64,000 nucleotides of DNA, taken from contig NC_086097.1 of the NCBI RefSeq assembly GCF_963921235.1, forward strand, positions 14,446,001 through 14,510,000, written 5' to 3'. Origin of the DNA: Mobula hypostoma. Its lineage: Eukaryota. Under the pieces are notes generated by a model, which did no database searches, had not been told where the DNA came from, and saw nothing but the letters and a program-made list of their open reading frames with translations. This document shows positions 3,405 through 62,254 of this stretch, piece by piece. Each line of letters opens with the position of its first letter. Positions within the stretch are counted from its first letter, which is position 1. A program made the position numbers and the translations under genes.

Positions 3405-3435
<31 letters not shown>

Positions 3436-5935: not shown

Positions 5936-6129
5936 ATTTTTAAAAAACTGCTGCACTGGTGGTCAGCAGAGGAGTGGGGAGGTGTGTTCAGGCAGGGGAG
6001 TTAGTTCATAATAAATGGTATGGGCACCGGTAGTAGGGTACAGGGGAGATAAAATACCCGGCCCCAGTGTGTGGAGTGTGTTCTTCACTGCCAAGACTCC
6101 TGACTGGTGTTCGATAAATGTACCAAGGA

Positions 6130-6600: not shown

Positions 6601-7654
6601 GCTAAACAGCCTCCTTCTGAGAGCGAGGGTCATCTGACACAGGTAATGCTCACTGCTGCTTTGTGTCCGGACCTTTAACACAATGTGATATAGGGGACCA
6701 AAAGAGAAACTATGTGTGCAGTTGCCCTCATCACTTGTACATTTCAATGAAAGTCAATTTTCTATTAGTCTGATTTAATGCTTTGACAGAATCAATTATA
6801 ATACACACATCTAAAAGCTACTTTTAATAATTACCGAACAGAGTCTGGACTTAGTCAAGTAACATTATCTTCACTGGTGGATGAAGGTAAACTGAACACC
6901 AATACTAAAATAGGTTAACGGTTGAGACCTGTTAATCTCCCTCGAGCCGAGACCTGTTAATCCTCACATTATCAACAATTCAATTTTTTTAAATTTCAGA
7001 GATACAGCATGCAATAAGCCCTTCCGACCCAATGAGCCACACCTATTTAACCCTAGCCTAATCACAGGACCAATTTACATGTGACCAGCCCATGGACGGA
7101 TTTCCAACATCTTCTCAAATGGGCATGGGAGACCCTGACTGAAATGACTGTGTTTCAGTACCACTGCCTCCTGATCTCAAGTTCAATCTGAAAGTGTCCT
7201 TTTGGTTGTCAAGAGCCACTTAAAAACATGTGAATTCATTTAGCTCCTTCCATGACTTCAGGGCTTCTGAATGGACTTTACAATGTGTGCTGCCTTGGAA
7301 CTCTGTAATACAAGTATTCCTCGATTCACCAACATTCAATTAGTAATTTTTCTCTGCAATGCTACTGATCTTTTGGGGACATATCTTCCTAAATGATCTC
7401 CCTCATGTTTGGGAACATCCATCCCTCGAGATGAGATGGCCAACCTGATGAATGGTGTGATCCTGTCTATTAAATAATCTGTTTCGGCCTGATCTCCAGA
7501 AGCAAGTATTGACTCATACGGTAAACAGGCCCTTCGGCCCAACTAGTCTGCACTGATCAAGATACCTCATAAACCAGTATCTGGTCCATAGCCTTCTAAA
7601 CCTTTCCATATCATTACCTGTCAACTGTCTTTTAATGACTGCTATTGTATCTAG

Positions 7655-8000
7655 CAACACACACAGAATGCTGGAGGAACTCAGCAGATCAGGTAACATC
7701 TATGGAAAAGAATAAACAGTCGACGTTTTGGGCCAAGACCCTGCTTCAGGACAGAGAGTCTCAGCCAGAAACATCGACTGTCTATTCATTCCCATAGATG
7801 TAGCCTGCCGTGCTCAGTTTCTCCGACATTTTGTGTCCTGACGAAGGGTTCCCGCCCGAAACGTTGACTGTTCATTTCCACGGATGCTGCCCGACCTGCT
7901 GAGTTCCTCCAGCATGTTTGAATGTTACTTTGACCCCAGCATCTGCAGAGTATTTTGTGTGTGTTGCTCTGGAACTCCAGTACCTGCAGAATCTTCCCTG
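7655..8000. mobile_element. PLE family 1 terminal-repeat cluster (one inverted arm plus tandem plus-strand arms)
   Basis: aacacacacagaatgctggaggaactcagcag... and its reverse complement repeated; hammerhead-like core at 7838-7865. Confidence 0.75.
7835..7868 (+). ncRNA. Minimal type I hammerhead ribozyme motif (PLE family 1)
   Basis: GTC-CTGACGA-A-GGG TTCCCG CCC-GAAA-CGTT-GAC. Confidence 0.6.
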
Positions 8001-18320: not shown

Positions 18321-20731
18321 AGTTTGAAGCCCATCAGCTTTCAGGGAAAAGTAAGTAAATTCACAGAACACAACTATGAAGCAGGAGGAAAAGTTCCTTA
18401 GATTTAAAAAGGGGAATATAGTCTTTTTCCATTACCATGAACCAGTGACCTGGCTATGCATTAAAATGAGTTCCTTTAAATCTGGACAGATCCCTGATGA
18501 AGTACTCGGCTGCAGGATAATGGCATTCTATCGATAACAATAAAGGTGCAAAGAAATGTCCCACAAATCCAAACGAAGTTCAATTCAATTCTGGTACAGG
18601 TTTGTATACGAAGGGTCCAAACAGGATCACGGCCACCCATCCCACAATCTCTTTGACCCACTACCGTTACAGAGCAGGTACAGAAGCATCAGGACTAGGT
18701 CTGCCGGACTGGGTAACAGTTCCCTCCCCTGTTTGTAAGACGAATAAATACCTGCCACCACCGAGGTCTTGTCACCAGGACAGCAAGCTGTTCACTGTTT
18801 ACCTGTGCTGTGCACTGTCACGTGCCTTTTGAATGATATTTTATGAACTTATTTGTGGTAATATTTTGTCTTACGTGCTGTGTGTGATATATGTATCATG
18901 GGTGCACCGTGGTCCAGAGGAATGCTGTTTTGTTTGGTTGTATATATTTAGTCAGATGATAACAAAGTTGAACTTGAAACATGCAGTAAAATAACAAAAC
19001 ACCTTCAACATAACTTGCCAGAAATAAATATGTTTTGTTTTTTTTTTAAATTAAAGCAACAACTGATATCCCAGCATGGGCTGTGTTTAGCTCAGCAATG
19101 CACGGTTATCAGCTGATGAGATTTCATGAAAATCAATCTAAGAATGGGTAATTGAAAACCTCAGATTGTTAACAGTTATGTTTTCCATTAGCCCCTTTCG
19201 TTGTAAATCTACACAAACCTCCAGACTAATCCCCCGAGTCAACGTACAGACAGTATTTTAATTTTAATGGAGCTATGCGGAGCATACATTTAGCAACTAA
19301 GTGGTAATTGACATTACACAGACACAGTCTCATAGCCACATTATATAGGTTAGCAAATACAGAGGGGAGTCATTAATGGGGCAGAGCAAACAAATGATAA
19401 TGTATGTATGCAGTGCTGAATGATGTGATGTTGAGAGTGTTGGGTCTTGTGGGATTTATAAAACAGGAAAAAATGGCAACTGAGCACAAGTAAATTTGTC
19501 TCATTTGTCTATTAAATTAAAGGTCAGCCTTCTGACCTGAAACGCAATAAAATATTGTAACTTCAGAATGGGACTGAGCTGGCGCTTCCTCTGACTTCTT
19601 GCCGACACCCAGCCCTTTTGTACCTGACGTCAGCTTTGATTTACTCGACCACGTTCCCACCTCCAGGTCAAAGGGGGGGCTTGCAAGTTTGGGTGAGGCG
19701 TCAGCCCTCCAGCACCTAATATTCCAAGCTAATGCTCATGCACAGCCTGAAGGTTTGCCAAGAAATCAGAGTCATCTCCTACCCCCACCCTCCCCCAACA
19801 GCACTCTACCACCTCACCCCACACAATGGTGCAATGTTTGAAGAGATTCACCTCGTGTCTCCCAGTTGACGTGGTGAGTTGACTACGGCTTGGGGAAAGT
19901 ATTTCCGAGTCTGGTGGTCCCGGTGTGAATGCTACATAGCCTCCTTCCTGCTGGGAGTGGGAGCAGGGCGTGTGGAACCCTTCATGATGTTACTGGTCCT
20001 TTACCGGCACCCTTCTGTTCGTGTATCTCTGATGGCAGCGCAGGTAGGCCGGTGATGGTGATGCGTTGCGCAGTTTTGCCTTCCTGTCTGCTGCAGTCGT
20101 CCCAGCAGTGTGGGCAAAATGACCACCTTCCGAGGCGTAATAAAGACCAGCAGCAAGAAAAGGCTAACTGGGCACTCACCACATTTACTCCTGTGAGACA
20201 TGTTTATGCATGCTATTGGATTTAATTATTTAACAACTATAACTTAGATGACAAGATTTAATTTTAGATGACAAGAGCTTAGATGACAAACATGAGAAAT
20301 TCTGCAAATGCTGGAAATCCAAACTAACACACACACACACACAAGATTCTGGAGGAACTCAAGAGGTCTATGGAAATGAATAAAGAGTGGACGTTTCAGG
20401 CCAAGACCCTTCTTGAAGTTGGCTGGACACCTCACTGTAAGGCTGGGTTCTTACTTTGTAGAGTGCATTTCAGCAACTATACGTGAACAATTGTGGGGAT
20501 TCTAACAAAGAACTTACAGAACAAATATACCTCCTTCTCAGAAGCTGAAGACCTGCCATGTACTTTGAGCGGTTTGTGCTTTGATTCCACCGTCTCCAAT
20601 TCTTTTGACCTTAACACATATTAATTCATAACTCCATCAGTACTTTAAAAAGGTTGGGGGGGTGGGGTGAATGGCAAGCAATCCGAAGGTAAAGTGAAAG
20701 GGACTTGTAAAGACAAACGATTCTACAGGAT

Positions 20732-21375
20732 AAATAACGAGAAATTCTGCCAGAAATCCAAAGCAACACACACAAAATGCTGGAGCAACTCAACAGAGTG
20801 GAACAATGGGAAAAAGGGAAGGAGGAGGGGACCCAGGCTATAGCCATGAGAGAAGAGGTAAGGGGCCAGAGTGGGGAAGAGAAGAAGAGGAGGGGGAGCG
20901 ATTTATTTTTAACCAGAAAGAGAAATTGATAGACATGTCATCAGTTTGGAGGCTACCCAGATATAAAATAAGGTGTTGTTCCTCCACCCTGAGGGTGGCT
21001 TCATCGTGGCACAAGAGGAGACCATGGACTGACATGTCAGAACGAGAACGGGAATCGAAATTAAAATGTTTGGCCACTGGAAAGTTCTGCTTTCGGCAGA
21101 TGGAGCTGAAGTGCTCGACGAAGCGGTCCCCCCAATCACAACAGGTCTCACCAATGTAGAGGAGGCCGTATTAAGAGCACGGCACACAAAAGATTCCACA
21201 AATGTTAGAAATCCAGAGTAGCACATACAAAATGCTGGAGGAACTCAGCAGGCCAGACAGTGTCTATGGAGTGGAATAAACAGTTCTGATGAAGGGTCCC
21301 GACCTGAAACCTCAACAGTTTATTCCTCTCCATGGATACTGCCTAACCCGTTGAGTTCCTCCAGCATTTTGTATG
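20732..21375 (-). mobile_element. Penelope-like element family 1: GIY-YIG endonuclease C-terminus plus terminal repeats
   Basis: ORF 20838..21077 PVAKHFN...SDMSVHGLLLCHDEATLRVEEQHLILYLGSLQTDDMSINFS resembles the PLE endonuclease end. It is flanked by family 1 arms. Confidence 0.78.
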
Positions 21376-23016
21376 TGAAGGGGGCTTAGTGATGTCACCA
21401 ATCAGCACTCTCTGTTTGTTATCCTAGAACAAAGTGGGGCCTGCATCATATCCTCAAGTGGAACATCAGCTTGCGGAAGGTAATGTCTGGAGTACAGTTA
21501 GCTTCTACCCCAAGCCCCTGGTAATACGAGTACTCCTAAGAGAGGCTGAGAAAGGAGGCTTGCCCTCTTGGGACTCTCAAACAAGTCCAACTCTTAGTCA
21601 TAGTAACATATACCTAATGCTGGAAGAACTGAGCAGGTCAAGCAGCATTTATGGAGAGGAATAAAGAGTCGACACTTTAGGCCGCGACCCTTCACCAGGA
21701 CTATATCCCTGAGTATATATATTACAAGAGAATGAATCTGATTGCTGACTATATTCCTGAGTATATATATTACCAGAGAATGAATCGGATTGCTGAATCT
21801 ATGGTTCTCACTAGATGTAATCTTCCATTAGACAGCGGAAGCTGCAGGTTGGTCCTCTGTGAGTGAGTATGTGTGTGTGAGAGAGAGAGAGAGTGGAGTG
21901 GGATGAAGTCACTGTTCAGGGCAAGATACCTAGCAAAGGCTTAACTAGAAGTTCAACACACACAAAATGTTGGAGGGACTCAGCAAATCAGGCAGCATCA
22001 ATGGAGGGGAATAAAGAGTAAATATGCTGAAGGTCTCTACTTTACCCAGGAAAACACACAAACACAAGCACTGGCAAATGTCTGGTCATGATGGAGCTCG
22101 GGTGTGCAGATTCTCCTGTCAACCCAGAGAAAATGTGACCCAGCACGAGGAGATAAGATGCACAAAATGCATCAACACTTTCTCAACGGCAAAAATTAGT
22201 ACATGCACTCCAAAATGTTTTCTATAATATTAAAAGGAAAGAAAAAGATTGCATGTGCTGGCAATCTTAAACAAAAATAGAAAATACTGGAAACACTCAT
22301 CTACCTACGGGAAAGATGACGATAAGATTGAAAGAGTACAGAGAAAATTCACAAGCATGTTACCAGGACCCGAGTCATTAGGGAAAGGTTGAATAGGTTA
22401 GTACTTTACTCCCAAGAGCATACGACAATGTGGGGAAATTTGGTGGAGGGGTAGAGACAGAGTAAAAGGTTAAACATTACCCATCGCACTTTTTCGACTG
22501 AGGTTGAGTGAGACTAGCATGGGTCATGGGTTAAAGGAGAAAGGTGAAATGTTTAAGGGGAACATGACGTTTTCAAACTAAGATGGTGCTGGTGAAGCAC
22601 AGCGATGACTTGTTGACAGCAAAAACGATCATTAACTACTTTATTAATCACACTTTTTCTCAGAAGTGATCACTGCAATTGATAGCCTGTAATTTCCCTT
22701 CTGGAGCTGAGCTTTCGAACCGCCTATATGACCTGTCATTTTTGTGGTGTGAACTAAAGTCTCAAAGGCACAGGATGGTTGCAGCATGGTGCGTACGGGC
22801 TGAATTATGGCAACAGGACCAGGGCTGGAGAGCGGGGAATGAGCCAATGTTTGGCTGCTGGATCAGACTTGAAGGTGATATGAAATGGCAGAACCAAGGC
22901 AAGGCAAATTCAAGGTGGTGGGACTCAGGCCTGAGAGCGAGGAGCAAACCGGGGTTTGACTGATTCAAGCTTGGGGCCGAATTGGAAAGGTTGGATACGG
23001 ACCAAATTGAGGCAGC

Positions 23017-23286
23017 GGGTCCTGGACCTGAGAGGGTATTGAAGACGGGTCCTGGACCTGAGAGGGTATTGAAGACGGGTCTTGGACCTGAGAGGGTATT
23101 GAAGGCGGGTCCTGGACCTGAGAGGGTATTGAAGACGGGTCTTGGACCTGAGAGGGTATTGAAGACGGGTCCTGGACCTGAGAGGGTATTGAAGACGGGT
23201 CTTGGACCTGAGAGGGTATTGAAGGCGGGTCCTGGACCTGAGAGGGTATTGAAGACGGGTCCTGGACCTGAGAGGGTATTGAAGCG
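23017..23286. repeat. 30-bp minisatellite, 9 copies
   Basis: GGGTCCTGGACCTGAGAGGGTATTGAAGAC units that differ at essentially two positions. Confidence 0.96.
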
Positions 23287-23506
23287 GCAGGGTCTTGGGT
23301 CCGAGAGCAAAGAATGACCCGTTGTTCGGCTGATTTAAGCGTTAGGCCTGATTGAAAAGGTCAGGGTGTCATGGCAGGAGGCCAGGGATGGGCTGATGTT
23401 CGGCTTGCTGCTCCGCGAGGTTTACTCGTCTCTGCGCTGAACTGAGGCTGGATAGACTCCTGGATAGGCTTGGTGTCTGAACTTTCCTGAACTTCAATTC
23501 TGAATG

Positions 23507-26018: not shown

Positions 26019-28754
26019 TTTTTTCAGACGTGAAAGAGGCAGAGGAATGAAGGGTGGGGGGGGGGGGTGGCATTACCAGTCAGGGAAAATGTTACAGCAG
26101 TGCTCAGGCAGGACAGATTAGAGGGCTTGTCTACCGAGGCCATATGGGTGGAGCTGAGAAACAGGAAAGGTATGACCACATTAATGGGGTTGTATTATAG
26201 ACCACCCAATAGTAAGCCAGAATTGGAGGAGCAAATCTTCAGACAGATTGCAGACAACTGCAGAAAACATAAAGTTGTGAAAGTAGGGGATTTTAATTTT
26301 CCACATATTGATTGGGACTCCCATACTGTTAAAGGTCTAGACGGGTTAGAGTTTGTAAAATGTGTTCAGGAAAGTTTTCTAAATCAATATATAGAGGAAC
26401 CAACTAGAGAGGATGCAATATTAGATCTCCTATTAGGAAACGAGTTAGGACAGGTGACCGAAGTGTGTGTAGGGAAAACTTTGGTTCCAATGATCATAAC
26501 ACCATTAGTTTCAACTTGATCATGGATAAAGATAGATCTGGTCCTTGGGCTGAGGTTCTAAACTGGAAAAAGGCCAAATTTGAAGAAATGAGAAAGGATC
26601 TAAAAAGCGTGGATTGGGACAGGTTGTTCTCCGACAAGGATGTGATTGGTAAGTGGGAGGCCTTCAAAGGAGAAATTTTGAGACTGCAGAGTTTGTATGT
26701 TCCTGTCAGGATTAAAGGCAAAGTGAATAAGAATAAAGAACCTTGGTACTCAAGGGATATTGGAACTCTGATAAAGAAGAAGAGAGAGATGTATGCCATG
26801 TATAGGAAACAGGGAGCAAATAAAGTGCTTGAGGAGTATTAAAAAGTGCAAAAAAAAACTTAAGAAAGAAATCAGGAGGGCTAAAAGAAGACATGAGGTT
26901 GCTTTGGCAGTCAAGATGAAGGATAATCCAAAGACCTTCTACAGGTATATTAAGAGCAAAAGGATAGTAAGGGATAAAATCGATCCTCTTGAAGATCAGA
27001 GTGGTCGGCTATGTATGGAACCAAAAGAAATGGGGGAGATCTTAAATGGGTTTTTTGCGTCTGTATTTACTAAGGAAACTGGCATGGAGTCTATGGAAAT
27101 AAGGCAAACACGTAGTGAGGCCATGGAACCTATACAGATTGAAGAGGAGGAGGTGCTTGCTATCTTGAGGCAAATCAGAGTAGATAAATCCCCAGGACCT
27201 GACAGGGTATTCCCTCGGACCCTGAAGGAGACTAGTATTGAAATTGCAGGGGCCCTGGCAGATATATTTAAAATGTTGGTATCTACGGGTGAGGTGCCGG
27301 AGAATTGGAGGATAGCACATGTTGTTCCGTTGTTTAAAAAAGGCTCTAACAGTAACCTGGGAAATTCTAGGCTGGTAAATTTGATGTCGGTAGTAGGTAA
27401 TTATTGGAAGGAGTACTAAGAGATAGGATCTACAAGTATTTGGATAGACAGGGACTTATTAGGGAGAGTCAACATGGCTTTGTGCGTGGTAGGTCATGTT
27501 TACCCAATCTATTAGAGTTTTTCGAGGAGGTTAGCAGGAAAGTGGATGAAGGGAAGGCAGTGGATATTGACTACATGGACTTCAGTAAGGCCTTTGACAA
27601 GGTCCCGCATGGGAGGTTAGTTAGGAAGATTCAGTTGCTTGGTATACATGGAGAGGTAGTAAATTGGATTACACATTGGCTCAATGGAAGAAGCCAGAGA
27701 GTGGTGGTAGAGAATTGCTTCTCCGAGTGGAGGCCTGTGACTAGTGGTGTGCCACAGGGATCAGTGCTGGGTCCATTGTTATTTGTCATCTATATCAATG
27801 ATCTGGATGATAATGTGGTAAATTAGATCAGCAAATTTGCTGATGATACAAAGACTGGAGATGTAGTGGACAGTGAGGAGGGTTTTCAGAGCCTGCAGAG
27901 GGACTTGGACCAGCTGGAAAAATGGGCTGAAAAATGGCAGATGGAGTTTAATACAGACAAGTGTGAGGTATTGCACTTTGGAAGGACAAACCAAGGAAGA
28001 ACATACAAGGTAAATGGTAGGGCACTGAGGAGTGCAGTAGGACAGAAGGACCTGGGAATACAGATACAAAATTCCCTAAAAGTGGCGTCACAGGTAGATA
28101 GGGTCGCAAAGAGAGCTTTTGGTACATTGGCCTTTATAAATCGAAGTACTGAGTATAAGAGCTGGAATGTTATGGTGAGGTTGTATGAGGCATTGGTGAG
28201 GCTGAATTTGGAGTATTGTGTGCAGTTTTGGTCACCAAATTACAGGAAGAATATTAATAAGGTTGAAAGAGTGCACAGAAGGTTTACAAGGATGTTGCCG
28301 GGACTTGAGAAACTGAGTTACAGAGAAAAGTTGAATAGGTTAGGACTTTATTCCCTGCAGTGTAGAAGAATGAGGGGAGATTTGATAGAGGTATATAAAA
28401 TTATGATGGGTATAGATAGAGTGAATGCAAGCAGGCTTTTTCCACTGAGGCTAGGGGAGAAAAAAACCAGAGGTCATGGGTTTAGGGTGGGGGGGAGCTT
28501 AAAGGGAACATTGGGGGGGGGAGCTTCTTCACACAGAGAGTGTGGAAGTGTGGAATGAGCTGCCAGATGAAGTGGTAAATGCGGGCTCACTTTTAATATT
28601 TAAGAAAAACTTGGACAGGTACATGGATGAGAGGTGTATGGAGGGATATGGTCCAGGTGCAGGTCAGTGGGACTAGGCAGAAAAATGGTTCGGCACAGCC
28701 AAGAAGGGCCAAAAGGCCTGTTTCTGTGCTGTAATGTTCTAAGGTTCTATGATT
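26019..28754 (+). mobile_element. CR1 LINE ORF2 (APE endonuclease part and RT), frameshifted and 5'-truncated
   Basis: Consecutive ORFs carry [59 protein letters not shown] and KFADDTK. Possible TSD CATCC at 26014-26018 and 28755-28759 inside a Rex1/Babar-like host fragment. Confidence 0.95.
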
Positions 28755-29885: not shown

Positions 29886-30421
29886 ATAGAACCATAGAAC
29901 ATTACAGCACAGAAAAAGGCCTTTTGGCCCTTCTTGGCTGTGGCGAACCATTTTTGTGCCTAGTCCCACTGATCTGCAACTGGACCATATCCCTCCATAC
30001 ACCTCTCATCCATGTACCTGTCCAAGTTTTTCTTAAATGTCAAAAGTGAGCCCACATTTACCATTTGATCTGGCAGCTCATTCCACACTCCCACCACTCT
30101 CTGTGTGAAGAAGCCCTCCTGCCAATGTTCCCTTTAAACTTTTCCCCCTTCACCCTTAACCCATGTCCTCTGGTCTTTTTCTCCCCTAGCCTCAGTGGAA
30201 AAAGCCCGCTTGCATTCACTCTATCTATATCCATCATAATTTTATATACCTCTATCAAATCTCCCCTCATTCTTCTACACTCCAGGGAATAAAGTCCTAA
30301 CCTATTCAACCTTTCTCTGTAACTGAGTTTCACAAGTCCCGGCAACATCCTTGTAAACCTTCTCTGCACTCTTTCAACCTTATAAATATCCTTCCTGTAA
30401 TTTGGTGACCAAAACTGCACA
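29886..30421 (-). mobile_element. CR1 LINE 3' fragment, same subfamily as 26019-28754
   Basis: ORF 30058..30420 QFWSPNYRKDI...RGDLIEVYKIM...TRGH with a matching 3' UTR. Confidence 0.92.
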
Positions 30422-31454
30422 CTTGATACATTTTACTTTGAACTTGGGAATTCAGAGAGATTCGAGGTTTCTTTCTGAGGTTTAATATCACCGGTATATG
30501 TCGTGAAATTTGTTTTTCTGGATAAGAGATTAATTAAATATTTCTAAACTCTACCTCCACCTTTGTGTAGAGGTGGTAAGATGGCAGTATTGGTCTCACA
30601 AGTGGGACTATGATAATGTCACCTTGCCTCTGACTCACTTCCAAGCACCACTTCCTGCCAGTAATGCAGCATCACAGAATAAGCTTGATTTAATGAAATA
30701 TACTGAGTACATCTTTGAGGGAGATCAATTTACTGGACTGCAGGGGCACCAGGGGTCGTGGCAAGCAGACACTAGATGAAGTTGAAACAAAAGATCACAG
30801 CAGGCTTGAGAGTGCTGTGCGAAAGACCAGGCTGGAGGTCTACCCTTGCTTCTATTTCTCACGTTTGCCTCTGCGCTTCACGTGTTGACTGTATAGCCGG
30901 ATGTACAGAGTCTGTGGTTACCTTTTGCTCCAAATCTTGCTCGTTTCTTCTCAAAGGGTGCGGCAAATCTTGGCAGAAGAAGAAAGGCTTCCGCTTAAAG
31001 CCCTTCTCCTAGATCGAGTAAACAGTCAGAACCTTCAGCCCTCTTTAGAGAGATCAATAAAGAGACTGGTAGAAGGATTAAAAGGGAGATGTGTCAAACT
31101 ATTTTTTTTTAACTAGAAGCTGATGTGGAGTTTACTGCCTGTGTTGTGTCACACTTTAAAAACTGCAGAGAGCTGCAGGTTTAAGGACCTGGATGATGGG
31201 ATTAGGGCAGGTTTCTGTTCTTAAATCTGAACGGACATGTTTGCTGTCCACAGTTTCGCTCAGCAGTACATTTCTAAATGAGCCGTTCTCAGGAGCATTG
31301 CTTCCAGACCTCGATCACACCAAAAAAAAAACGGAATCAGGTTTAACAACTCAGGCGTATGTCGTGAAATTAGCTGATTTGCGGCAGAAGCACTATTAGG
31401 TGCATAAAAGTATTACAAATTACAATTAAGAAATTTATGTATATAAATATACCC

Positions 31455-33532: not shown

Positions 33533-35269
33533 GGATAAAGAGAGGGAAGCTGAACCAGGGAATGCAGATTTAAATTTTTGCTCAAAAAATATGAAAGTTA
33601 GAGGAAGACCTTCTAAACAGAAAGTAGTTATAATCTGGAACTTTGTCATGGACACTTTGCAGCCCAGCTGCAAAAGGAAGAGGGTTGAGCATGGGGCTAG
33701 TAACTCTAAAAGCAACAGAAGCTCCAAAGACTTTTATCCCTGGGAGGGGAAGGATGTTCACCTGGAAGACGTAGGAAGTCATGTGGTGAAAGCAGAAGCC
33801 ACAGGGCTGATTATTTTTTGGCCCAGAACAGCACACTCTGGTGACCCGCTGTTGGCAGCCTATGTCCCAGTCGGGGTGATGGGCTTTATGACCGGTTGGC
33901 TCAAACCACAAGGCATGGCTCATTCTAATCGGCCATAGAACAAATCCGATTCTCTGGGACAGATAGAAAACGCAATCACTGCTCATTTGAACGAGACAGA
34001 ATGTGGGTGGCTGTGGTGCACTTGACGGAATTTCAAAATGCCCCAGTGGGGAGCTCTGGTCCAAAACTTTGCTGGCATTTTCACAGGGAGCGTGTCATTC
34101 CACTTCAGTTCGCCTCTGTTGGAGCAGATGGACACAGCTCAGGTTTAGCAGCAGGCTACTACACTAAGCAACGGCACAAAGCTAAGCTTGCAGCGTGGGA
34201 CTGAAGCTGGGGGGTGGGGGAGGGACCTTTTGGTCTAGCAGAGGAAGGAACTATGACAGAACAAAATGACAGCTCTGTGTAGTGCACCCCAAGGCCCAGC
34301 AACAAGAAACCTACAGAGGAAGAGTCTTACTGTGCAGTGCTATCTCCAAATATTCCCTTTACGCACAACATGTGGCTATGTTCATTAAAGGAGACTATCC
34401 ACTACACAAGGGTAAACACTCCAAATAAGCAAAATTCTTCTACGAAATAAGTCACCGAATTTCATAAACAATTACATAGTTAGCAAGTGGTGTAACCCAC
34501 AAGCCGGAAAAGGGCAAATGAAACTCAAAAGAGAACTGCAGATGCTGGAAACCTACAACAAAAACAGAAAGTGTAGGCAATACTCAACAGGTCAGGCGCC
34601 ATTCTCTGCCTAATCTGCTGAAGAGTTCCAGAATTTTCTGTCTTTGGTCCATACTTTCACTCTGGTGGTGAAGGTAATTAGTCATACGAAACTGAAAGAA
34701 AATAGCAAGTCCTAGTGGCAGCAGACATCTGTGGAACGCTCTGCCTCAGAAGGCAGTGGATGCCAATTCTCCAGGTGCTTCAGGAAAGAGTTAGATAGAG
34801 CTCTTAAGGGTAACGGAGTCAAGAGATATGGGGAGAAGGCAGGAATGGGGTACTGATTGTGGATGATCAGCCATGTTCACAGTGAATGGTGGTGCTGGCT
34901 TGAAGGGCCGAATGGCCTATCCTGCCCCTATTGTCTATCGTCAGACAGGAAGATGACAAAATCCACTTATTCAATCAAACATCTTCCAATATTTAAACCT
35001 GTCCTCAATTCACCAAGCCTCAGCCAAGAGAAAATTGGTGGTTTGGGTGTCAAATGTCAGAATGGCTGATGAGAAGCTGCCCATGGTTTTTTAGCAGGCA
35101 ATAGTTTGGAGGAAGGGATAGAACAATATGACATACAACCCAGAAATGATACCCACCGAAGATTACCTTTTGGCAATGTGGAGCAGACCAAGTGAATTTC
35201 ATCCAATGCTGTCAGCTCTATACTCCTACTTGTAGTAATAACCAATTCTCCCAAGATAGAATTGAAGAA

Positions 35270-36010
35270 AGGCACAGTCGACGTTTCGGGCCGAGACCCT
35301 TTTTCAGGACTAACTGAAAGAAGATCTAGTAAGAGATTTGAAAGTGCGAGGGGGAGGGGCAAATCCAAAATGATAGGAGAGGATGCTCTGTCCGCCAGAG
35401 AAAGCAGGATCTCCCAGTGGCCACACATTTTAGTTCTACATCCCATTCCCATTCTGATATGTCTATCCACGGCCTCCTCTACTGTAAAGATGAAGCCACA
35501 CTCAGCTTGGAGGAACAACACCCTATATTCTGTCTGGGTAGCCTCCAACCTGATGGCATGAACATTGACTTCTCTAACTTCTGCTAATGCCCCACCTCCT
35601 CCTCGTACCCCATCCGTTATTTATTTATATACACACATTCTTTTTCTCTCTCTCCTTTTTCTCCCTCTGTCCCTCTCACTATACCCCTTGCCCATCCTCT
35701 GGGTTTTTCCCCCCCCTTCCCCCTGGGCCTCCTGTCCCATGATCCTCTCGTATCCCTTTTGCCAATCACCTGTCCAGCTCTTGGCTCCATCCCTCCCCCT
35801 CCTGTCTTCTCCTATCATTTTGGATCTCCCCCACCCCCTCCCACTTTCAAATCTCTGACTAGCTCTTCCTTCAGTTAGTCCTGACGAAGGGTCTCGGCCT
35901 GAAACGTCGACTGCACCTCTTCCTACAGATGCTGCCTGGCCTGCTGCGTTCACCAGCAACTTTGATGTGTGTTGCTTGAATTTCCAGCATCTGCAGATTT
36001 CCTCGTGTTT
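35270..36010 (+). mobile_element. 5'-truncated Penelope-like element family 1 with an inverted 5' arm
   Basis: The plus strand encodes DLPVATHFS...SDMSIHGLLYCKDEATLSLEEQHPIFCLGSLQPDGMNIDFSNF, followed by the terminal repeat. 35270-35381 is an inverted copy of about 35803-35918. 13-bp TSD TAGAATTGAAGAA at 35257-35269 and 36011-36023. Confidence 0.88.
35877..35912 (+). ncRNA. Minimal type I hammerhead ribozyme motif, intact core
   Basis: AGTC-CTGACGA-AGG GTCTCGG CCT-GAAA-CGTC-GACT; predicted cleavage after 35908. Confidence 0.75.
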
Positions 36011-36537
36011 TAGAATTGAAGAATGTTACTTTCCTTCAACAAACGCCTCTTGCACGGGCCTCAGTTAAAAGAATTTTCTGTGCTTGTAGGTACAGCTTTA
36101 TCTGCAGATTTTTATGGGGAGGGGCAAACAAAATGTAGTAACACTAGCTATAATCAGTCAGCTTTGCTTATTACTGTTAAAAATGTAAGGACCTGCGCAA
36201 TATCGAGAAAGTGGAATGAGGATTAATCCAACTATTTCCCTGGAACAGCAGCTTTGGCTTATTGAGATAAACTGGAGGGACGCAGGTGCAGACACACCCA
36301 GCCCTGAGACACTATGTAGGGTCATTTGATTCCAAACAATTGATTTATTGATCAGTATAGAATGTCTCTACAATGCTTCCCTCACCCTTCCCCTTTTCCA
36401 ACCATGATTCCCCTCGCCCTGCCCCCTTCCCACTTTCAGTCCACAATAGAGACCCATATCAGAATCAGGTTTATCATCACTAAAACATGTCATTTTTTTT
36501 TTGCAGTGGGAGTACAATGCAAAAGACAAAATTACTA

Positions 36538-40647: not shown

Positions 40648-41078
40648 TAAGACCGTAAGATATAGGAGCAGTAGTCGGCCATACAGCCCACTGAGTCTGC
40701 TCCGCCATTCAATCATGGGCTGATCCAATTCTTCCAGTTATCCCCACTCCCCTGCCTTCTCCCCATACTCTTTGATGTCCTGGCTAATCAAAAACCTATC
40801 TAGCTCTTCTTTCAGTTAGTTCTGACGAAGGGTCTCGGCCCGAAACGTCGACTGTACCTCTTCCTAGAGATGCTGCGTAGCCTGCTGCGTTCACCAGCAA
40901 CTTTTATGTGTGTTACCTATCTATCTCTGCCTTAAATGCACCCAATGGCTTGGCCTCCACAGCCGATTGTGGCAACAAATTCCACAGAGTTACCACCCTC
41001 TGACTAAAGTAATTTCTCCGCATCGCTGTTCTAAATGGACGTCCTTCAATCCCAAAGTCGTGCCCTCTTGTCCTAGAT
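40648..41078 (-). mobile_element. CR1 3' fragment interrupted by a 112-bp hammerhead-bearing PLE insert (40803-40914)
   Basis: ORF 40913..41119 SRTRGHDFGIEGRPFRTAMRRNYFSQRVV; 9-bp TSD ACCTATCTA at 40794-40802 and 40915-40923. Confidence 0.85.
40818..40853 (+). ncRNA. Minimal type I hammerhead ribozyme motif, intact core
   Basis: AGTT-CTGACGA-A-GGG TCTCGG CCC-GAAA-CGTC-GACT. Confidence 0.7.
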
Positions 41079-41365
41079 TGTGCAATAAAAGCCTCTGTAG
41101 AAACTATAAATTTAAACAATCTCCCTCAGAAGATAATTAGCGGGTCAACTCGTCTGAACTACGCTGCTAAACTCTGAAACTCAACACCTAAAACTATAAG
41201 GGATACAGGCTCAGTTGACACTTCTAAACACCAGCTCAAAGACCATTTATTTAACCTTGCTTTTAACTAATATCTTTGTGTCCTGAAGATGGGACTTGGC
41301 CCAAAACGTTGACTGCCTGTTCATTTCCTTAGATGTTGCCAGACCTGTCGAGTTCCTCCAGCGCT

Positions 41366-41423
41366 GTGCGTGTGTGTGTGTGCGTGCGTGCGTGTGTGTG
41401 TGTGTGTGTGCGCGCGTGCGTGC

Positions 41424-41460
<37 letters not shown>
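41366..41460. repeat. Compound (GT)n/(GC) microsatellite grown from a PLE arm gtgtgtgtt seed
   Basis: Alternating purine-pyrimidine run of about 95 bp. Confidence 0.95.
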
Positions 41461-44670: not shown

Positions 44671-46024
44671 TATCACAGTAAAATATTTTGAGTATGTTTA
44701 TTCTATATCCTCCCTCCTTAGTATAGATCGGTATGTGATAGCTGTATGGACACGCAGGCAAAAGAGACTGTTTCTATACTGTATGACTGATTTTAATTCT
44801 GCTGTGACAGCTTTGCTGGATTTTTCCCTTTGGTGGAGTGAGGGAACAGGAAACACTTGAAAGAACAGACTTCCAGTCCATGAAATATCTCCTTCATACT
44901 CTGGCTTCACATTAAGAATGATGCACGTCTTAAGCCACCTTTATGTAACAGATCTAAGGCTTACTGTCACTTTAACATTGAATAGCATGAGAGCTTACTT
45001 GGTTGTTGCCTGAAATGGAATAGATCCAAGGAATTCTTGGCGCTGTTAATAAACTTGTACACTGCAACACAACTCCTGGGAATAGGTGCAAGGCCTTTAC
45101 AAATTTACAATTTTAAAGTGGCTCTTGAAAAAAAAATGTTCATTACACTGTGACAGCTGCAATAAAACCCATTAGCAACTCTGCTTTTCTTTAAACAAGA
45201 GAGCGAAGTGATCTATAGTTTCCAGTCCAAAATTTTCCAAATAAACATTCAAAATAAAAACTACAAGTAACACATATAACATGCTTTGGGAACTCAAGCA
45301 ATGTGTAAGGAGAGGAATAAACAGTCGATGTTTTGGGCTGAGACCCTTCATCAGGACTGGAAAGGAAGGGCGGAAGAGCCAGTATAAGAAGGAGTAGGGA
45401 GGGGAAGAAGTACAAGCTAGAAGTTGATAGCTGAAGCCAGGTGGATGAGGAAGAGTGTGAAGTGAGAAGCTGGGAGGTGATAGGTGGAAAAGGTAAAGGA
45501 CTGAAGAAGGAATAAAAACTAAGCAATATGATCAGGAAGAGGAGAGGATTACAGGATAAAGATTCTCAAATGATTTATGATGATATACAGTAAATCCTTC
45601 TATCATTCTTCCCAGTCAAAAGGCAATGTATGAGAGACTTGTATTAATCAGTGAAGACTGAGAATTCAAGAATACTGTGCTAGAAATGGGACCCTGATAG
45701 GACACTGAGGACCTGGAGTCCATGTGGTAGGAGCACACAGACACTCAGCATGAATGGCAGAGGGAGTACACGTCCTCGTAACTTACCCAATCACACAACC
45801 CTTCTGGGACCTCTTGCCTTGTCCACGGCAGAGTGCGTTTCACACCCCGATCGGTCATCTTAGAAACATAGCTGGTCCTCCTTGATCCCAAGGGACAAAC
45901 TAGGAAGAGTTCTCAGCACCAGAGAGGTTGTGACAGTGCAGGAGACGAAGATGCAGGTAAGTTACGAGGATGAAGCCAATGCTGCAGAATTTTACTTATG
46001 AGGAGAGGTCATCTCGGCTAGGGT

Positions 46025-54165: not shown

Positions 54166-56453
54166 GACGTCAGAGATCCTTTAAGTCTTAAAGTGCTGTC
54201 TGCTCCAAGGTCCGGCTGAGGGCAATCCACTTAAAACAAAGCGGGAAAATGATCAGAAACAAATTTCTCCCAAAGACCAGTATGTGCCTTTACAGTTCAG
54301 AGGGTAATGGATAAATCTCCAAAGACATTAGCAGTAACTTTCCATAAGTAACTTCGTGAAATAAAAACACTGAGGAACTGGCAAATGTTATAAGAGCTTT
54401 GATGCTTGGAGGCTGCTGTGTTTACATTGCTGGGGATCTATATTTAAACTGAGGAGCTCTTCACCATAAGAATGCTGCACTGATTGTACTGTGTGTAATC
54501 AGTGAGCAGCATTCATTGCTGTGTCTCAACTTAGAAGTTAAGGGGAAAAGGCAAATGGGAAAGCTGCATCTCTCTCTTTCAACCTTCAACAATGCAAATC
54601 ACCTTGTGAAACATTCTACGAACAAAGGATTCATCACCCCTGGTTCAGTAAGTGTTATAGGAGCAGTGGAGAAGATAGAAATGATGAAGAGACAGTTTGA
54701 CGGCAGTGGAGCAGGTTCAAGGGGCTGAATGGCCTCTTCCTGCAAGAGAGGCAGCTATCACTGTTCCCAAGCACACGGTAGCGTAGCAGCAAGGGCGACG
54801 TCATTACAGCTCAGGGCGTCTCAGTTCGGAGTTCAATTCCGACACTGTCAATGAGAAGTTTGTATGTTCCTCCTGTGTACGCACCAGTTTCCTCCAGTAT
54901 TCTCCCACAGTACCGGTTAGTGGATAGATTGTCCTCTTATTAGGCTAGCGTTACACAGGTGGGCTGTTGGGTGGTGCAGCTTGTTGGGCTGGATAAATAA
55001 ATAAGTCGGCTTCCAGCCTTTTTATCATCAGCCCTCTACAGAGTCTGGAAACAAACCTATTGAGGTTATGTCGAAGAGGGGGGAGGTCTCCCCAAACTTC
55101 CCTGTGGCAGCCTTTTGTGCACAATCTCCCACTCTACTTTCTGCATTATATTAATGCCTACACTTCTGAAGTACTTCGATGGCTGTGAAGTGGTTTGGGA
55201 TGTCTCAAGGTTCTGAAAGGTGCAACAGAAATGGAAGTAATTTTTCTCTGAAGAATAAATATACCTTCAAAATCAGGGACCGAATCCAAGCCAGCACGTC
55301 TGCATTGCTAAGCATAACCTCAAAATTGGAATTCTATCCAATATATATACTCAATTCTTGCCAACAGGGATAAAGAGCCAAATAGGAATTTTTGTATTTT
55401 GTTAAGAGTAAAAGAAATACGCAGAGCAGTATAGAGGCAGGTTACCAACTGTGATTAACTTTGACATGTTTGGAATAATTGGAATTAGTGGATCTGAGCC
55501 GTGCTGTCTTTTCAAACAGGGCTAAGATATTCTGCAAACTTTTGTCAAGTAAGAAGCAACTCTGTAGCATAGCGGTAAGCATAGCTACTACAGCTCAAGG
55601 CATTCCAGAGATTGGAGTCCAATTCAGGTGTCCTCTGTAATAAGTTTGTGCACCCTTCCCGTGACCGCGTGGGTTTCCTCCCACAGTCCTGAGATGTACC
55701 AGTTGGTAGGTTAATTGTGGCCCTGTGATCAGGCTTGGGATGTATAGGTGAGCTGCCGGACAGTGCGGCTCACTGAGTCTGAAGGACCACTTCTGTGCTG
55801 TACCTCTTAATAATTAAGTACATAAATGGGGTGAGGTGTGGGGAGGATGGGGGTTGCTGTTGTGTGACCGTTGCTTCATGAATTAGTCACAACTAATGAT
55901 GATGATGCATTTCAGACAGTTTGTGTACCTGGAAATAAACAGAGAAACAACTTGCTTAGAGGCGGAATAAAAATAATTTGTTTTCTTTAAGAATGTCTGC
56001 AGACCACTATTTTAATTCATTAAACTTTGGAGAGACCCCCTTCTCCATCTGCAGAGAAAGCTGTGCTTTGCGGCACCTAACAAGTGCGAGGGACATCAGG
56101 AACTTGGTGTGATGGTAAATCAGGAATTATGTGAAGCTTGCAAGGGTGAATGTATTTCCTTCAACTATGGGGAAGCTTGTGAATTGCAAGGTGCTGTATC
56201 ATTTCTGTCAGCTTTAGCTCACTAGTACCGTGCTGGCAAACTTCTGAAGATTTATGTACAAAGCAACCCTTCAGCCCATCACAGGATCAAGTCTACTGCA
56301 AACTTTGTCACCCATGCAAACTGACCCACTGTTCTTACTAGTGACTACTAAAAGCCTCTGCGTACCACCTTACTCAATGAGGCCCTCACCGCTGAGTCAG
56401 GCTGTCCCTCGCTCTAGGGACTAGTACACAAAGAACAGATAATAAAGATACCC

Positions 56454-56590
56454 ATCCTCTTTCCCACCTTCTTTATAGGGCCTCTGCCCCTTCCCGCTTC
56501 AGTCCTGACGAGGGGTTCCGGCCCGAAACGTCGACTCGTTTCCACGGATGCTGCCCAACCTGTTGAGTTCCTCCAGCGTGTTGTGAGTGT
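56454..56590 (+). mobile_element. 137-bp solo PLE family 1 terminal repeat with 14-bp TSD
   Basis: TAATAAAGATACCC at 56440-56453 and 56591-56604. Confidence 0.85.
56501..56536 (+). ncRNA. Minimal type I hammerhead ribozyme motif, intact core
   Basis: AGTC-CTGACGA-G-GGG TTCCGG CCC-GAAA-CGTC-GACT; predicted cleavage after 56532. Confidence 0.75.
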
Positions 56591-62032: not shown

Positions 62033-62254
62033 AGAGTAACACACACAAAATGCTAGAGGAACTCAGCAGGTCAGACCACATCTCTGGAAAGGAAGAAAGA
62101 GTCAACGTTTCAAGCTGAAACCTTTCTTCAGGATGACTTTGGCCCAAAATGTCAGCTCCTTCTTCCTTTCCATAGATAATCCCTGACCTGCTGAGTTCTT
62201 CCAGCATTTAGTGTGTGTTACTCTGGATTTCCAACATCTGCAGAATCCCTTGTG
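62033..62254. mobile_element. Palindromic non-coding PLE family 1 derivative
   Basis: Inverted arms; TSD TCCAAT(G/A)GCTCTTA at 62019-62032 and 62255-62268. Confidence 0.8.

What the first reader, a model, noticed from the sequence alone, without database searches (positions are those of the whole stretch)
35877..35912. Minimal, probably dimer-dependent hammerhead ribozymes dispersed through the BCL11B intron
Seen: the most abundant short repeat here contains AGTC-CTGANGA-(A)GGG..CCC-GAAA-CGTC-GACT. That gives stem I (AGUC/GACU), the hammerhead core CUGANGA and GAAA, a 3-bp stem II and a GUC cleavage triplet. Intact cores are at 7838, 35881, 40822 and 56505, with more than a dozen decayed copies. 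Stem III is reduced to the palindrome ACGU with no loop, so one copy cannot close it. Established: minimal hammerheads with palindromic stem III occur in Penelope-like element terminal repeats and are thought to cleave as dimers. Inference: this high-copy, SINE-looking repeat is a ribozyme-bearing PLE terminus. I cannot say whether it has already been described in this lineage.
Basis: partly seen in the sequence, partly recalled or inferred. Interest (0 to 1): 0.85.

Follow-up and report, generated by a model that had tools for sequence, protein, structure and literature searches.

The report
Penelope retroelement minimal hammerhead motifs
The repeated motif is the small hammerhead ribozyme motif carried at the ends of Penelope-like jumping genes, here left behind as dead, truncated insertions in a BCL11B intron of a fish-like genome that holds tens of thousands of them; the kind is already described, so the catch is correct but ordinary.

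Summary
At 35877-35912 (+) the sequence reads helix I / CUGACGA / one spare A / a 4-bp helix II / GAAA / the loop-less palindrome ACGU / GUC / helix I. Four window copies keep both core boxes and the palindrome (7838, 35881, 40822, 56505). An nhmmer profile finds 31 copies or fragments in the window.

The 35881 copy lies 296 nt downstream of the stop codon of a GIY-YIG ORF remnant, inside a 741-bp insertion flanked by a 13-bp target-site duplication. Longer copies elsewhere in the genome show hammerhead-tail-ORF (over 1000 aa, reverse transcriptase plus GIY-YIG)-hammerhead-tail. That is the pLTR-ORF-pLTR layout of Penelope-like elements (PLEs).

The 3.48-Gb genome holds 79,201 exact matches to the 28-nt core pattern; the reversed-pattern control gives 0.

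The motif meets every sequence feature of the "min-HHR" class of Cervera and De la Pena (2014). It is a new member of a known kind.

Catalysis was not tested. Copies in this genome show no stem covariation. Copy 5' ends do not pile up at the cleavage site.

New details are the very high copy number, a young family with long open frames, and hairpin-shaped insertions joined exactly at helix I. The scan has found PLE hammerheads before, on other DNA.

The parts
35877..35912 (+). Minimal hammerhead motif. Helix I 35877-35880 with 35909-35912; CUGACGA 35881-35887; unpaired A 35888; helix II and loop 35889-35900; GAAA 35901-35904; ACGU palindrome 35904-35907. The predicted cut is after C35908.
   Evidence: No Rfam hammerhead model matches it, even at E up to 10.
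35270..36010 (+). One composite PLE insertion, flanked by a 13-bp target-site duplication (35257-35269 and 36011-36023). It consists of an inverted fragment at 35270-35383 (-) and a 5'-truncated copy at 35385-36010 (+).
   Evidence: blastn against L011; target-site duplication search.
35387..35587 (+). Last 66 codons and stop codon of the PLE ORF (C-terminal end of the GIY-YIG domain).
   Evidence: tblastn 87.7% over 65 aa; translation.
35588..35876 (+). C/T-rich 3' UTR between the ORF stop and the hammerhead.
   Evidence: Colinear with L011 and L020.
35909..36010 (+). 'Tail': the first ~100 nt of the next tandem unit, which every insertion carries 3' of the hammerhead.
   Evidence: In L020 the same sequence follows both hammerheads, and the upstream copy runs on into the ORF. 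The model comes from PMC11167929.
35280..35307 (-). Decayed hammerhead core (CTGAAAA: G8 to A) in the inverted fragment of the same insertion.
40803..40914 (+). 112-bp truncated copy (hammerhead core 40822-40849 plus a shortened tail), flanked by a 9-bp target-site duplication (40794-40802 and 40915-40923).
56454..56590 (+). 137-bp copy of an older subfamily (hammerhead core 56505-56532), flanked by a 14-bp target-site duplication (56440-56453 and 56591-56604).
7651..7931 (.). Cluster of three units: 7651-7759 (-) with a decayed core at 7722-7749; 7754-7836 (+) without an intact core; 7830-7931 (+) with the core at 7838-7865 (GUU triplet).
20288..21194 (-). Copy of a second, older PLE family: GIY-YIG ORF remnant at 20919-21194 (65.6% aa identity to the young family), a decayed hammerhead at 20390-20417, and a tail running to about 20288.
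21216..21381 (+). Hairpin-shaped copy: reverse-complemented tail, then hammerhead (21286-21313, palindrome lost), then tail.
62034..62223 (-). Hairpin-shaped copy with its hammerhead at 62104-62131 (-). Helix II has an A-U pair at 10.1-11.1, and the triplet is GUU.
41273..41379 (+). Decayed hammerhead-plus-tail copy (G12 to A).
45264..45362 (-). Decayed hammerhead-plus-tail copy (G12 to A, G16.2 to A).

Best explanation
What it is (odds about 0.93): the motif is the minimal hammerhead (min-HHR) in the pseudo-LTR of a canonical, endonuclease-bearing Penelope-like retroelement. The copies in the BCL11B intron are dead retrotransposition products. They are 5'-truncated, flanked by target-site duplications, and are decaying at CpG sites. 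They have no local job.

How it most likely works in the source elements (inferred, odds about 0.6):
- A tandem or partly tandem PLE locus is transcribed into a more-than-unit RNA.
- A single hammerhead cannot close helix III, because only the palindrome A15.1-C15.2-G16.2-U16.1 remains.
- Two copies therefore pair ACGU with ACGU to build one shared 4-bp helix III, probably helped by the element's own protein.
- Each copy then cuts after GUC.
- Reverse transcription starts inside the next unit, about 100-113 nt past the cut site. That is why every insertion carries hammerhead plus 'tail'.
- Most templates are uncut at the 3' hammerhead.

Shown here: motif anatomy, PLE context, orientation, target-site duplications and copy numbers. 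Inferred from the literature: dimer cleavage, protein assistance and internal priming.
For: Anatomy:
- Both core boxes, the spare nucleotide after A9, G10.1 paired with C or U at 11.1, the C15.2-G16.2 palindrome, the GUC triplet and a 4-5 bp helix I are all present.
- These match the features listed in PMC4209133 (main text, parts 1-2 read).

PLE context:
- The ORF remnant at 35387-35581 lies 296 nt upstream on the same strand.
- L020 shows hammerhead-tail-ORF-hammerhead-tail with a 3,512-nt unit.
- The ORF has weak Pfam hits to RVT_1 (24 bits) and GIY-YIG (18-22.5 bits).
- 544 relatives were found, and the listed ones carry precomputed PF00078 and often PF01541.

Abundance and age:
- 79,201 exact core-pattern matches against 0 for the reversed pattern.
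- 116,330 young-family tail anchors.
- The 104 scored ORF matches include 103 at 95-96% aa identity, and 6 of the 104 have open frames of 1000 aa or more.

Bona fide insertions: target-site duplications of 9, 13 and 14 bp.

Conservation between families:
- The young family and the 20288-21194 family share 74.5% DNA identity in the ORF.
- Their 3' UTRs give no alignment.
- 23 nt of the hammerhead core align at 95.7%, and 46 nt of the distal tail at 84.8%.

Tail and uncut templates:
- 96-97 of the first 100 tail anchors run on upstream into the hammerhead.
- This agrees with PMC11167929 (passages read): internal initiation of reverse transcription, unprocessed RNA as the main substrate, and a protein-assisted hammerhead.
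Against: - No cleavage was tested here.
- Rfam's hammerhead models do not match. This is expected for a motif without helix III, but it means no independent model supports it.
- There is no covariation among 20 copies (19 distinct): score 0.197 against a shuffled mean of 0.198, with 244 of 500 shuffles at least as high. Stems are nearly invariant across the families seen, so conservation of sequence cannot be told apart from conservation of structure.
- The tail is conserved as well, so conservation alone does not single out the ribozyme.
- In young copies the CpG at N7-G8 decays to the harmless TG (5 of 100) and the core-killing CA (7 of 100) about equally. Copies are therefore under no constraint.
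- Copy 5' ends do not pile up at the predicted cut site. Counts per arbitrary upstream triplet are about 10 at +1, against about 5-7 at +3, +8 and +12 and about 3.5 at -2.
- The monomer's lowest-energy fold pairs core bases GACG with CGUC, and it is no more stable than shuffles (z 0.08).
- Published min-HHRs cleave poorly in vitro (PMC4209133).
- In Anolis no RNA-seq reads end at the hammerhead site (PMC11167929).
Confidence: 0.62

Rival explanations
1. The element is the same (PLE pseudo-LTR), but in this lineage the hammerhead-like sequence is kept for a non-catalytic job. It could be an RNA or cDNA structure used in reverse transcription or second-strand priming, or part of the protein-binding or promoter region. 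On this reading the ribozyme resemblance is a relic.
For: - The conserved block runs from helix I through the whole tail, not the core alone.
- There is no covariation.
- 5' ends do not pile up at the cut site.
- The helix I complement is used at the DNA level. 56 of the first 100 of 249 break-at-+1 matches are the exact junction CAG|GACTG. 3 of 3 such loci fetched are hairpins of the form reverse-complemented tail, CAGTC, reverse-complemented core, GACTG, tail.
- In Anolis PAc, hammerhead mutants do not affect insertion in vitro (PMC11167929, passages).
Against: - All 11 invariant core nucleotides of CUGANGA and GAAA, the NUH triplet and the 15.2-16.2 palindrome are kept together in PLE families whose 3' UTRs no longer align.
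- The same architecture is reported in PLEs from cnidarians to reptiles (PMC4209133).
- C3/G8-dependent, protein-assisted cleavage was shown for one PLE hammerhead (PMC11167929).
Confidence: 0.28
2. The short units are an independent non-autonomous family that merely shares a module with PLEs. Candidates are a SINE or a non-LTR retrozyme spreading through small circular RNAs.
For: - Short copies of about 100-140 bp far outnumber ORF-bearing copies in the window.
- Two adjacent same-strand units occur at 7754-7931 and in L010.
- A 2026 preprint (10.64898/2026.07.22.740005; abstract, section 14 and passages read) derives vertebrate non-LTR retrozymes from PLE pseudo-LTRs and reports them in its one Chondrichthyes species.
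Against: - The young short copies are colinear with the PLE 3' end and begin at different points (35385, 40803; L010 against 56454). This is what 5' truncation gives.
- No tRNA-like head was found: ARAGORN reports 0 genes in the window. ARAGORN is a weak test for degenerate SINE heads.
- No regular tandem array of equal units was seen. The L010 pair consists of two different subfamilies within one target-site duplication.
Confidence: 0.08
3. The hammerhead resemblance is a chance feature of a repeat.
For: The boxes are short, and the stems are only 4-5 bp.
Against: - 0 of 100 shuffles reach the observed counts.
- 79,201 forward-pattern matches against 0 for the reversed pattern.
- Every independent feature of the published class is present (PMC4209133).
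Confidence: 0.01

Closest known systems
Minimal hammerheads (min-HHR) in the pseudo-LTRs of metazoan Penelope-like elements (Cervera and De la Pena 2014, PMC4209133)
   Same: Type I topology. No helix III or loop 3, and palindromic 15.2-16.2. One extra nucleotide between A9 and G10.1. G10.1 at the base of helix II. Short helix I (4-5 bp). Location in both flanking repeats of an RT + GIY-YIG element. Most copies are dispersed singly, and some lie close together on opposite strands.
   Different: Helix II here is 4 bp (7-8 bp in the Schistosoma families described). The commonest young subfamily has U at 11.1, giving a G-U pair. The copy number is about 79,000 exact-core matches, against about 4,000 (coelacanth) and about 9,000 (Xenopus), which that paper called remarkable. 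Cartilaginous fishes are not named in the text or in the 2 of 3 supplement files I could search.
Poseidon PAc of Anolis carolinensis (Frangieh et al. 2024, PMC11167929)
   Same: pLTR-ORF-pLTR tandem layout. Hammerhead near the pLTR-ORF junction. A 'tail' 3' of the hammerhead explained by internal initiation of reverse transcription. AT-rich targets (the target-site duplications here are TAGAATTGAAGAA, TAATAAAGATACCC and ACCTATCTA). Both DNA strands are extended, which fits head-to-head inverted insertions within one target-site duplication.
   Different: In PAc the ORF starts inside the hammerhead (at stem II). In the one long copy inspected (L020), the first ATG of the long frame lies about 140 nt past the cut site. 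Nothing biochemical is known for the element here.
Small hammerhead variants of PLEs that cleave as dimers (Lunse, Weinberg and Breaker 2017)
   Same: By its title as cited in other papers: small PLE-associated hammerheads acting as dimers.
   Different: I could not read it; the paper is not held. No detailed comparison was made.
Canonical type I hammerheads and non-LTR retrozymes of animals (De la Pena and co-workers; preprint 10.64898/2026.07.22.740005)
   Same: Same catalytic core. Helix III is short and palindromic, so these also favour dimers. Evolutionary link to PLE pseudo-LTRs.
   Different: Those have a closed helix III, loop-loop contacts between helices I and II, and regular tandem arrays that yield circular RNAs. 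Here helix III is absent, no Rfam hammerhead model matches, and no regular arrays were seen.

Membership tests
PLE minimal hammerhead (min-HHR) | Conserved boxes CUGANGA and GAAA in type I order | tested here: met
   exact at 7838, 35881, 40822 and 56505, and also at 21286 and 62107(-).
PLE minimal hammerhead (min-HHR) | No helix III or loop 3; positions 15.2-16.2 palindromic, so that two copies can share a helix III | tested here: met
   GAAA-CG-UC: A15.1 C15.2 G16.2 U16.1 are adjacent at 35904-35907. C-G is kept in 12 of 19 distinct copies.
PLE minimal hammerhead (min-HHR) | One unpaired nucleotide between A9 and G10.1, and a G10.1-C11.1 pair | tested here: met
   A35888 precedes GGG. The 10.1-11.1 pair is G-C in 11, G-U in 6 and A-U in 1 of 19 distinct copies. 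35881 itself has G-U.
PLE minimal hammerhead (min-HHR) | NUH cleavage triplet followed by the 3' strand of a short helix I | tested here: met
   GUC at 35906-35908, then GACU pairing with AGUC. The three inner pairs of helix I hold in 15-16 of 19 distinct copies.
PLE minimal hammerhead (min-HHR) | Lies in the flanking repeats of an element encoding RT plus a GIY-YIG endonuclease, in sense orientation | tested here: met
PLE minimal hammerhead (min-HHR) | Compensatory changes in helices I and II among families | tested here: not met
   covariation score 0.197 against a shuffled mean of 0.198. Only families of one genome were compared, and their stems barely vary.
PLE minimal hammerhead (min-HHR) | Self-cleavage after H17 in dimeric or multimeric transcripts | not testable with these tools
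   Needs in vitro transcription or end-specific RNA sequencing. The nested-pair folding tool cannot score the dimer, which needs crossing (non-nested) pairs.
Penelope-like element (canonical, EN+) | Single ORF with RT followed by a C-terminal GIY-YIG domain | tested here: met
   RVT_1 E 3.6e-5 at residues 534-696 and GIY-YIG E 1e-3 to 1.5e-4 near the C-terminus; all are below Pfam's curated cut-offs. The listed relatives carry PF00078, and many carry PF01541.
Penelope-like element (canonical, EN+) | Partial tandem (pseudo-LTR) organisation and a 3' 'tail' | tested here: met
   L020 has two same-strand hammerhead-plus-tail blocks 3,512 nt apart around the ORF. L022 runs from 7 nt past one cut site to about 90 nt past the next.
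Canonical type I hammerhead (Rfam hammerhead families) | Closed helix III and a match to the covariance model | tested here: not met
   0 matches at gathering score in the window. No hammerhead family at E up to 10 in 35780-36020.
Non-LTR retrozyme | Regular tandem array of short hammerhead-bearing units | tested here: not met
   Only irregular pairs were seen (7754-7931; L010 with two subfamilies). Only the window and a few loci were examined.
SINE | Pol III-type head (tRNA, 5S or 7SL derived) at a fixed 5' end | tested here: inconclusive
   ARAGORN finds 0 tRNA genes in the window. 5' ends of copies differ. ARAGORN is not built for decayed SINE heads.

The most novel reading that the evidence does not exclude
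The hammerhead's helix I may have a second, DNA-level role. After reverse transcription through the motif, the cDNA end would snap back on the helix I complement and prime its own second strand. This would create insertions in which the 28-nt ribozyme core is the loop of a perfect hairpin of about 90 bp or more made of two tails. With a young, probably still active family of more than 100,000 copies, such hairpins and sense-oriented ribozyme motifs in introns could be a sizeable, unstudied source of structured or self-cutting RNA in host transcripts of this lineage.
Probability: 0.12. Interest if true: 0.55.

Novelty: new member of a known kind. Interest (0 to 1): 0.25.

Why it matters
It adds one more lineage to the known rule that Penelope-like elements carry minimal hammerheads. 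By its closest named PLE relatives (bamboo shark, 69-72% identity) the lineage is probably a cartilaginous fish. The load is unusually heavy: about 79,000 exact-core motifs, with open frames over 1000 aa at 95-96% identity.

A genome like this would be a convenient natural data set for an open question: do these weak, dimer-type ribozymes really cut in vivo? Insertions keep a record of template 5' ends. In this first look that record shows no pile-up at the cut site. This agrees with the in vitro result in Anolis that uncut RNA is the main template.

For the BCL11B gene itself, the copies are ordinary intronic debris.

Tried and rejected
- **Rfam.** Gathering mode on the window and E-value mode on 35780-36020 gave no hammerhead hit.
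- **Monomer folds.** Four copies folded no better than shuffles.
- **Dimer fold.** The shared-helix-III dimer could not be scored, because it needs crossing (non-nested) pairs that the folding tool cannot represent. The unconstrained dimer minimum is an extended duplex (-32.7 kcal/mol), which I do not interpret.
- **Sequencing runs.** No RNA holder is listed, and all 24 runs are kept as contigs of uncertain kind. I did not lay them, because contigs cannot show RNA ends.
- **5' ends at the cut site.** I asked whether retrotransposed copies record cleavage as 5' ends at the cut site. They show at most about a 2-fold excess over neighbouring positions. The raw excess at +1 comes from hairpin junctions and a 2-nt insertion variant.
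- **Core protection from CpG decay.** In young copies the core G8 is not protected.
- **Covariation.** None was found.
- **Literature for this lineage.**
  - 'hammerhead' + 'shark' + 'SINE' returned only shark biology.
  - 'hammerhead ribozyme' + 'Penelope' + 'shark' returned one review, where 'shark' describes the shape of the motif.
  - The supplements of PMC4209133 hold no shark names in the 2 of 3 files searched.
  - I therefore found no explicit description for cartilaginous fishes.
- **Lunse et al. 2017.** The paper is not held.
- **Random genome sample.** I used 50 kb instead.
- **This scan's earlier notes.** There was nothing for this genome. Similar PLE hammerheads had been noted on other DNA.
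Full report
**1. Observation**

The sequence at 35877-35912 (+) reads AGTC CTGACGA A GGGTCTCGGCCT GAAA CGTC GACT. In hammerhead terms this gives:
- a 4-bp helix I (a fifth pair is a U-G wobble one step further out);
- the CUGANGA box;
- one unpaired A;
- a helix II of G-U, G-C, G-C and U-G closing a CUCG loop;
- the GAAA box;
- then A15.1-C15.2-G16.2-U16.1 with nothing between them, C17, and the return strand of helix I.

Helix III therefore cannot close within one molecule.

The two boxes at hammerhead spacing occur 6 times in the window against 0.56 expected. A 28-nt degenerate core pattern with up to 3 mismatches occurs 11 times against 0 expected.

A profile built from 10 window copies finds 31 copies or fragments in the window and 7 in 50 kb taken from five arbitrary places in the genome. 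The window tiles with most self-matches all belong to this family. The ORF at 2389-4422 (-) is 82% identical to proteins named BCL11B, so the 'BCL11B intron' setting is right. Rfam has no match, even at E up to 10. That is expected for a hammerhead without helix III.

**2. What the repeat is**

The window lies in a 3.48-Gb assembly of 200 contigs. The exact core pattern occurs 39,493 times forward and 39,708 times in reverse, against 0 and 0 for the reversed-pattern control.

Loci around such matches show an ORF ending ...GVIYCVRCSRCGLLYIGET...DFSNFR* upstream on the same strand. It gives weak GIY-YIG hits (E 1.5e-4 to 2.7e-3) and, in a longer copy, a weak RVT_1 hit (E 3.6e-5). All are below Pfam's curated cut-offs. 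A search with residues 480-1042 of a 1042-aa frame finds 544 relatives. The 120 listed nearly all carry precomputed PF00078, and many carry PF01541. The closest named ones are uncharacterized proteins of the bamboo shark Chiloscyllium punctatum at 69-72% identity, and others are from molluscs and a sea urchin. RT followed by a GIY-YIG endonuclease is the domain pair that defines canonical Penelope-like elements, as stated in PMC4209133.

In locus L020 the order is: end of a previous ORF, about 296 nt of UTR, hammerhead, tail, a 1095-aa open frame, UTR, hammerhead, tail. The two hammerheads are 3,512 nt apart on the ORF's strand. This is the pLTR-ORF-pLTR partial tandem of PLEs.

The ORF search had 257,684 first-look candidates, of which 104 were scored. 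One of these is the query's own locus (100%). The other 103 are 95-96% identical, and 6 of the 104 have open frames of 1000 aa or more. The family is therefore young and may still be active.

**3. The window copies**

*The 35881 copy.* Window 35385-36002 aligns over 622 bp at 91.6% to the 3' end of the element. This includes the last 65 codons of the ORF (35387-35581, 87.7% aa). The stop codon is at 35585-35587 and the hammerhead core starts 296 nt further on. Immediately to the left, 35270-35383 is an inverted piece of UTR plus a decayed hammerhead (CTGAAAA). A single 13-bp target-site duplication (35257-35269 and 36011-36023) flanks both pieces. The head-to-head pair therefore arose in one insertion event.

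*Other discrete insertions.* The 40822 copy spans 40803-40914 (112 bp) with a 9-bp duplication. The 56505 copy spans 56454-56590 (137 bp) with a 14-bp duplication.

*A second, older PLE family.* It is represented at 20288-21194 (-): an ORF remnant at 65.6% aa identity, a decayed hammerhead at 20390-20417, and a tail.

*Conclusion.* The 'SINE-looking' units are heavily 5'-truncated PLE 3' ends. Their 5' ends differ between copies, and no tRNA-like head was detected (a weak test).

**4. Head-to-head pairs and hairpins**

Seven loci in the window are inverted pairs with the tails pointing outward. Among the first 100 genome matches, I counted by eye 7 opposite-strand pairs closer than 1 kb. All 7 are in minus/plus order, that is, tails outward.

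A pattern that demands a break of homology exactly at the predicted cut site finds 249 places. However, 56 of the first 100 have the junction CAG|GACTG. All 3 such loci that I fetched have the form: reverse-complemented tail, CAGTC, reverse-complemented core, GACTG, tail. In these the 28-nt core is the loop of a long hairpin whose stem begins with helix I. Window 21216-21381 and 62034-62223 are older examples.

This fits the report that the Anolis PLE protein nicks and extends both DNA strands (PMC11167929, passages). It would also fit a snap-back of the cDNA on the helix I complement. Both readings are inference.

**5. Tests bearing on ribozyme function**

*(a) Covariation.* On 20 copies from the window and the arbitrary sample (19 distinct), 84.2% of cells pair. 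The covariation score of 0.197 equals the shuffled mean of 0.198, and 244 of 500 shuffles are at least as high. Stems hardly vary among the families present, so this genome gives no covariation support.

*(b) Conservation between families.* The young family and the 20288-21194 family share 74.5% DNA identity in the ORF. Their UTRs give no alignment. They share 95.7% over 23 nt of the hammerhead core and 84.8% over 46 nt of the distal tail. The hammerhead and the tail end are thus better kept than their surroundings, but both of them are.

*(c) Decay in copies.* At the N7-G8 CpG, 5 of 100 young copies have TG and 7 have CA. This is the neutral decay expected of dead copies.

*(d) The record of template 5' ends.*
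- 96-97 of the first 100 young tails continue upstream into the hammerhead.
- Break-point patterns give 35 places at -2, 249 at +1, 84 at +3, 57 at +8 and 43 at +12.
- Several junction classes have to be set aside. At +1 these are the hairpin junction (56 of the first 100) and a likely 2-nt insertion variant (CGA, 19 of the first 100). At +3 they are a likely 2-nt deletion variant (GTC, about 40 of 84) and the over-represented ACC class (about 17 of 84). At -2 they are likely 1-nt insertion variants (about 17 of 35).
- After that, arbitrary upstream triplets number about 10 per class at +1, against about 3.5-7 elsewhere. These counts were made by eye from the listings.
- There is thus no marked pile-up at the cut site.
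- One long copy (L022) begins 7 nt past the cut site and carries an 11-bp target-site duplication. This is suggestive but is a single case.

*(e) Folding.* The monomer folds into a rod that pairs core GACG with CGUC and is no more stable than shuffles. The shared-helix-III dimer needs crossing (non-nested) pairs and could not be scored.

*(f) RNA data.* No RNA run is on record for this DNA, so expression and cleavage remain untested.

**6. Comparison with what is known**

Cervera and De la Pena (2014; PMC4209133, main text parts 1-2 read) defined min-HHRs by:
- absence of helix III and loop 3;
- a conserved G10.1-C11.1 pair;
- palindromic 15.2-16.2;
- location in both pLTRs of PLEs.

They reported thousands of dispersed copies in fishes, coelacanth (about 4,000), Xenopus (about 9,000) and reptiles. 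They noted pairs on opposite strands 100-700 bp apart, and low dimer activity in vitro. Every sequence feature is met here.

Frangieh et al. (2024; PMC11167929, passages read) showed for an Anolis Poseidon element that the hammerhead is protein-assisted, that reverse transcription initiates internally (which creates the 'tail'), that unprocessed RNA is the main substrate, and that no RNA-seq reads end at the hammerhead site. The layout and the 5'-end record found here agree with that picture.

Other sources:
- A 2017 review states that all available PLE sequences carry hammerhead motifs (PMC6155905, passages).
- PLEs are reported in all vertebrate lineages studied, including elephant shark (PMC4350176, passages), and in whale shark (PMC8455134, one passage).
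- A 2026 preprint finds PLEs and PLE-derived retrozymes in its one Chondrichthyes species (10.64898/2026.07.22.740005; abstract, section 14 and passages read).
- The dimer paper of Lunse et al. (2017) was seen only as a cited title and is not held.

I found no text that describes this particular family or names cartilaginous fishes for min-HHRs. Repeat libraries and closed supplements could hold it.

**7. Verdict**

The motif is a new member of a known kind. What is new is a matter of quantity and detail: the roughly ten-fold higher motif count than the published 'remarkable' vertebrate cases, a young family with long open frames, single-event head-to-head insertions, and a hairpin class joined exactly at helix I.

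Whether the motif cuts in vivo is as open here as for other metazoan PLEs. The evidence from this genome neither adds covariation nor shows cleaved templates.

Earlier notes of this scan had already found PLE hammerheads on other DNA (a protist-like assembly and rotifers) and judged them known.

Noticed in passing
window 2389-4422 (-): A 677-aa open frame with C2H2 zinc fingers and an acidic run. It is 82% identical to proteins named BCL11B (lungfish, echidna, gar, bowfin) and is the large last exon. No closer relative was listed.
   Followed up: partly
window 7838, 35881, 40822, 56505 (+) against 7722, 20390, 35280, 45327, 62104 (-): All four copies with intact core and palindrome lie antisense to BCL11B. 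Four of the five sense-oriented copies have a core-breaking change, and the fifth (62104) keeps the boxes with a weakened helix II. The numbers are too small to call selection.
   Followed up: no
G000 listings (first 100 places each): CpG decay in the motif is lopsided on the element's sense strand. AACATC occurs 13 times against AATGTC 3; GTCAAC 8 against GTTGAC 2; loop CTCAG 13 against CTTGG 6 (counted by eye). This is G-to-A more often than C-to-T, across subfamilies. Editing or error at the cDNA stage is one possible cause.
   Followed up: partly
L029, L030, L031, and an estimated 140 or so places genome-wide (56 of the first 100 of 249 matches): A class of near-perfect hairpin insertions: reverse-complemented tail, CAGTC, the 28-nt core, GACTG, tail. 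They are joined exactly at helix I.
   Followed up: partly
L010:917-1327 (G000:C1:2252416-2252826): One 13-bp target-site duplication (AACTAAATGTAAA) encloses a mosaic: a young-family hammerhead plus tail, a tail fragment, an inverted tail, and a hammerhead plus tail of the older 56505-type subfamily. Either template switching between PLE RNAs or nested events could explain it.
   Followed up: partly
window 12892-13710 (-), 26034-28558 (+), 30058-30432 (-): Open frames with reverse-transcriptase-like sequence (…FADDTK…, by recall typical of CR1/L2-type LINEs). The same type appears in L006 and L012. No family scan was run.
   Followed up: no
window 22762-23360: Tandem repeat with a period of about 39 bp, open in several frames (…PVFNTLSGPG… repeated): a minisatellite.
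   Followed up: no
window 6100-6450, 23000-23150, 39051: A second repeat family with about 10 self-hits per tile in the window. It is unrelated to the hammerhead family and was not identified.
   Followed up: no
window 41330-41430 and 20300-20330: GT/GC-rich microsatellites have grown out of the GTGTGTG stretch of PLE tails.
   Followed up: no
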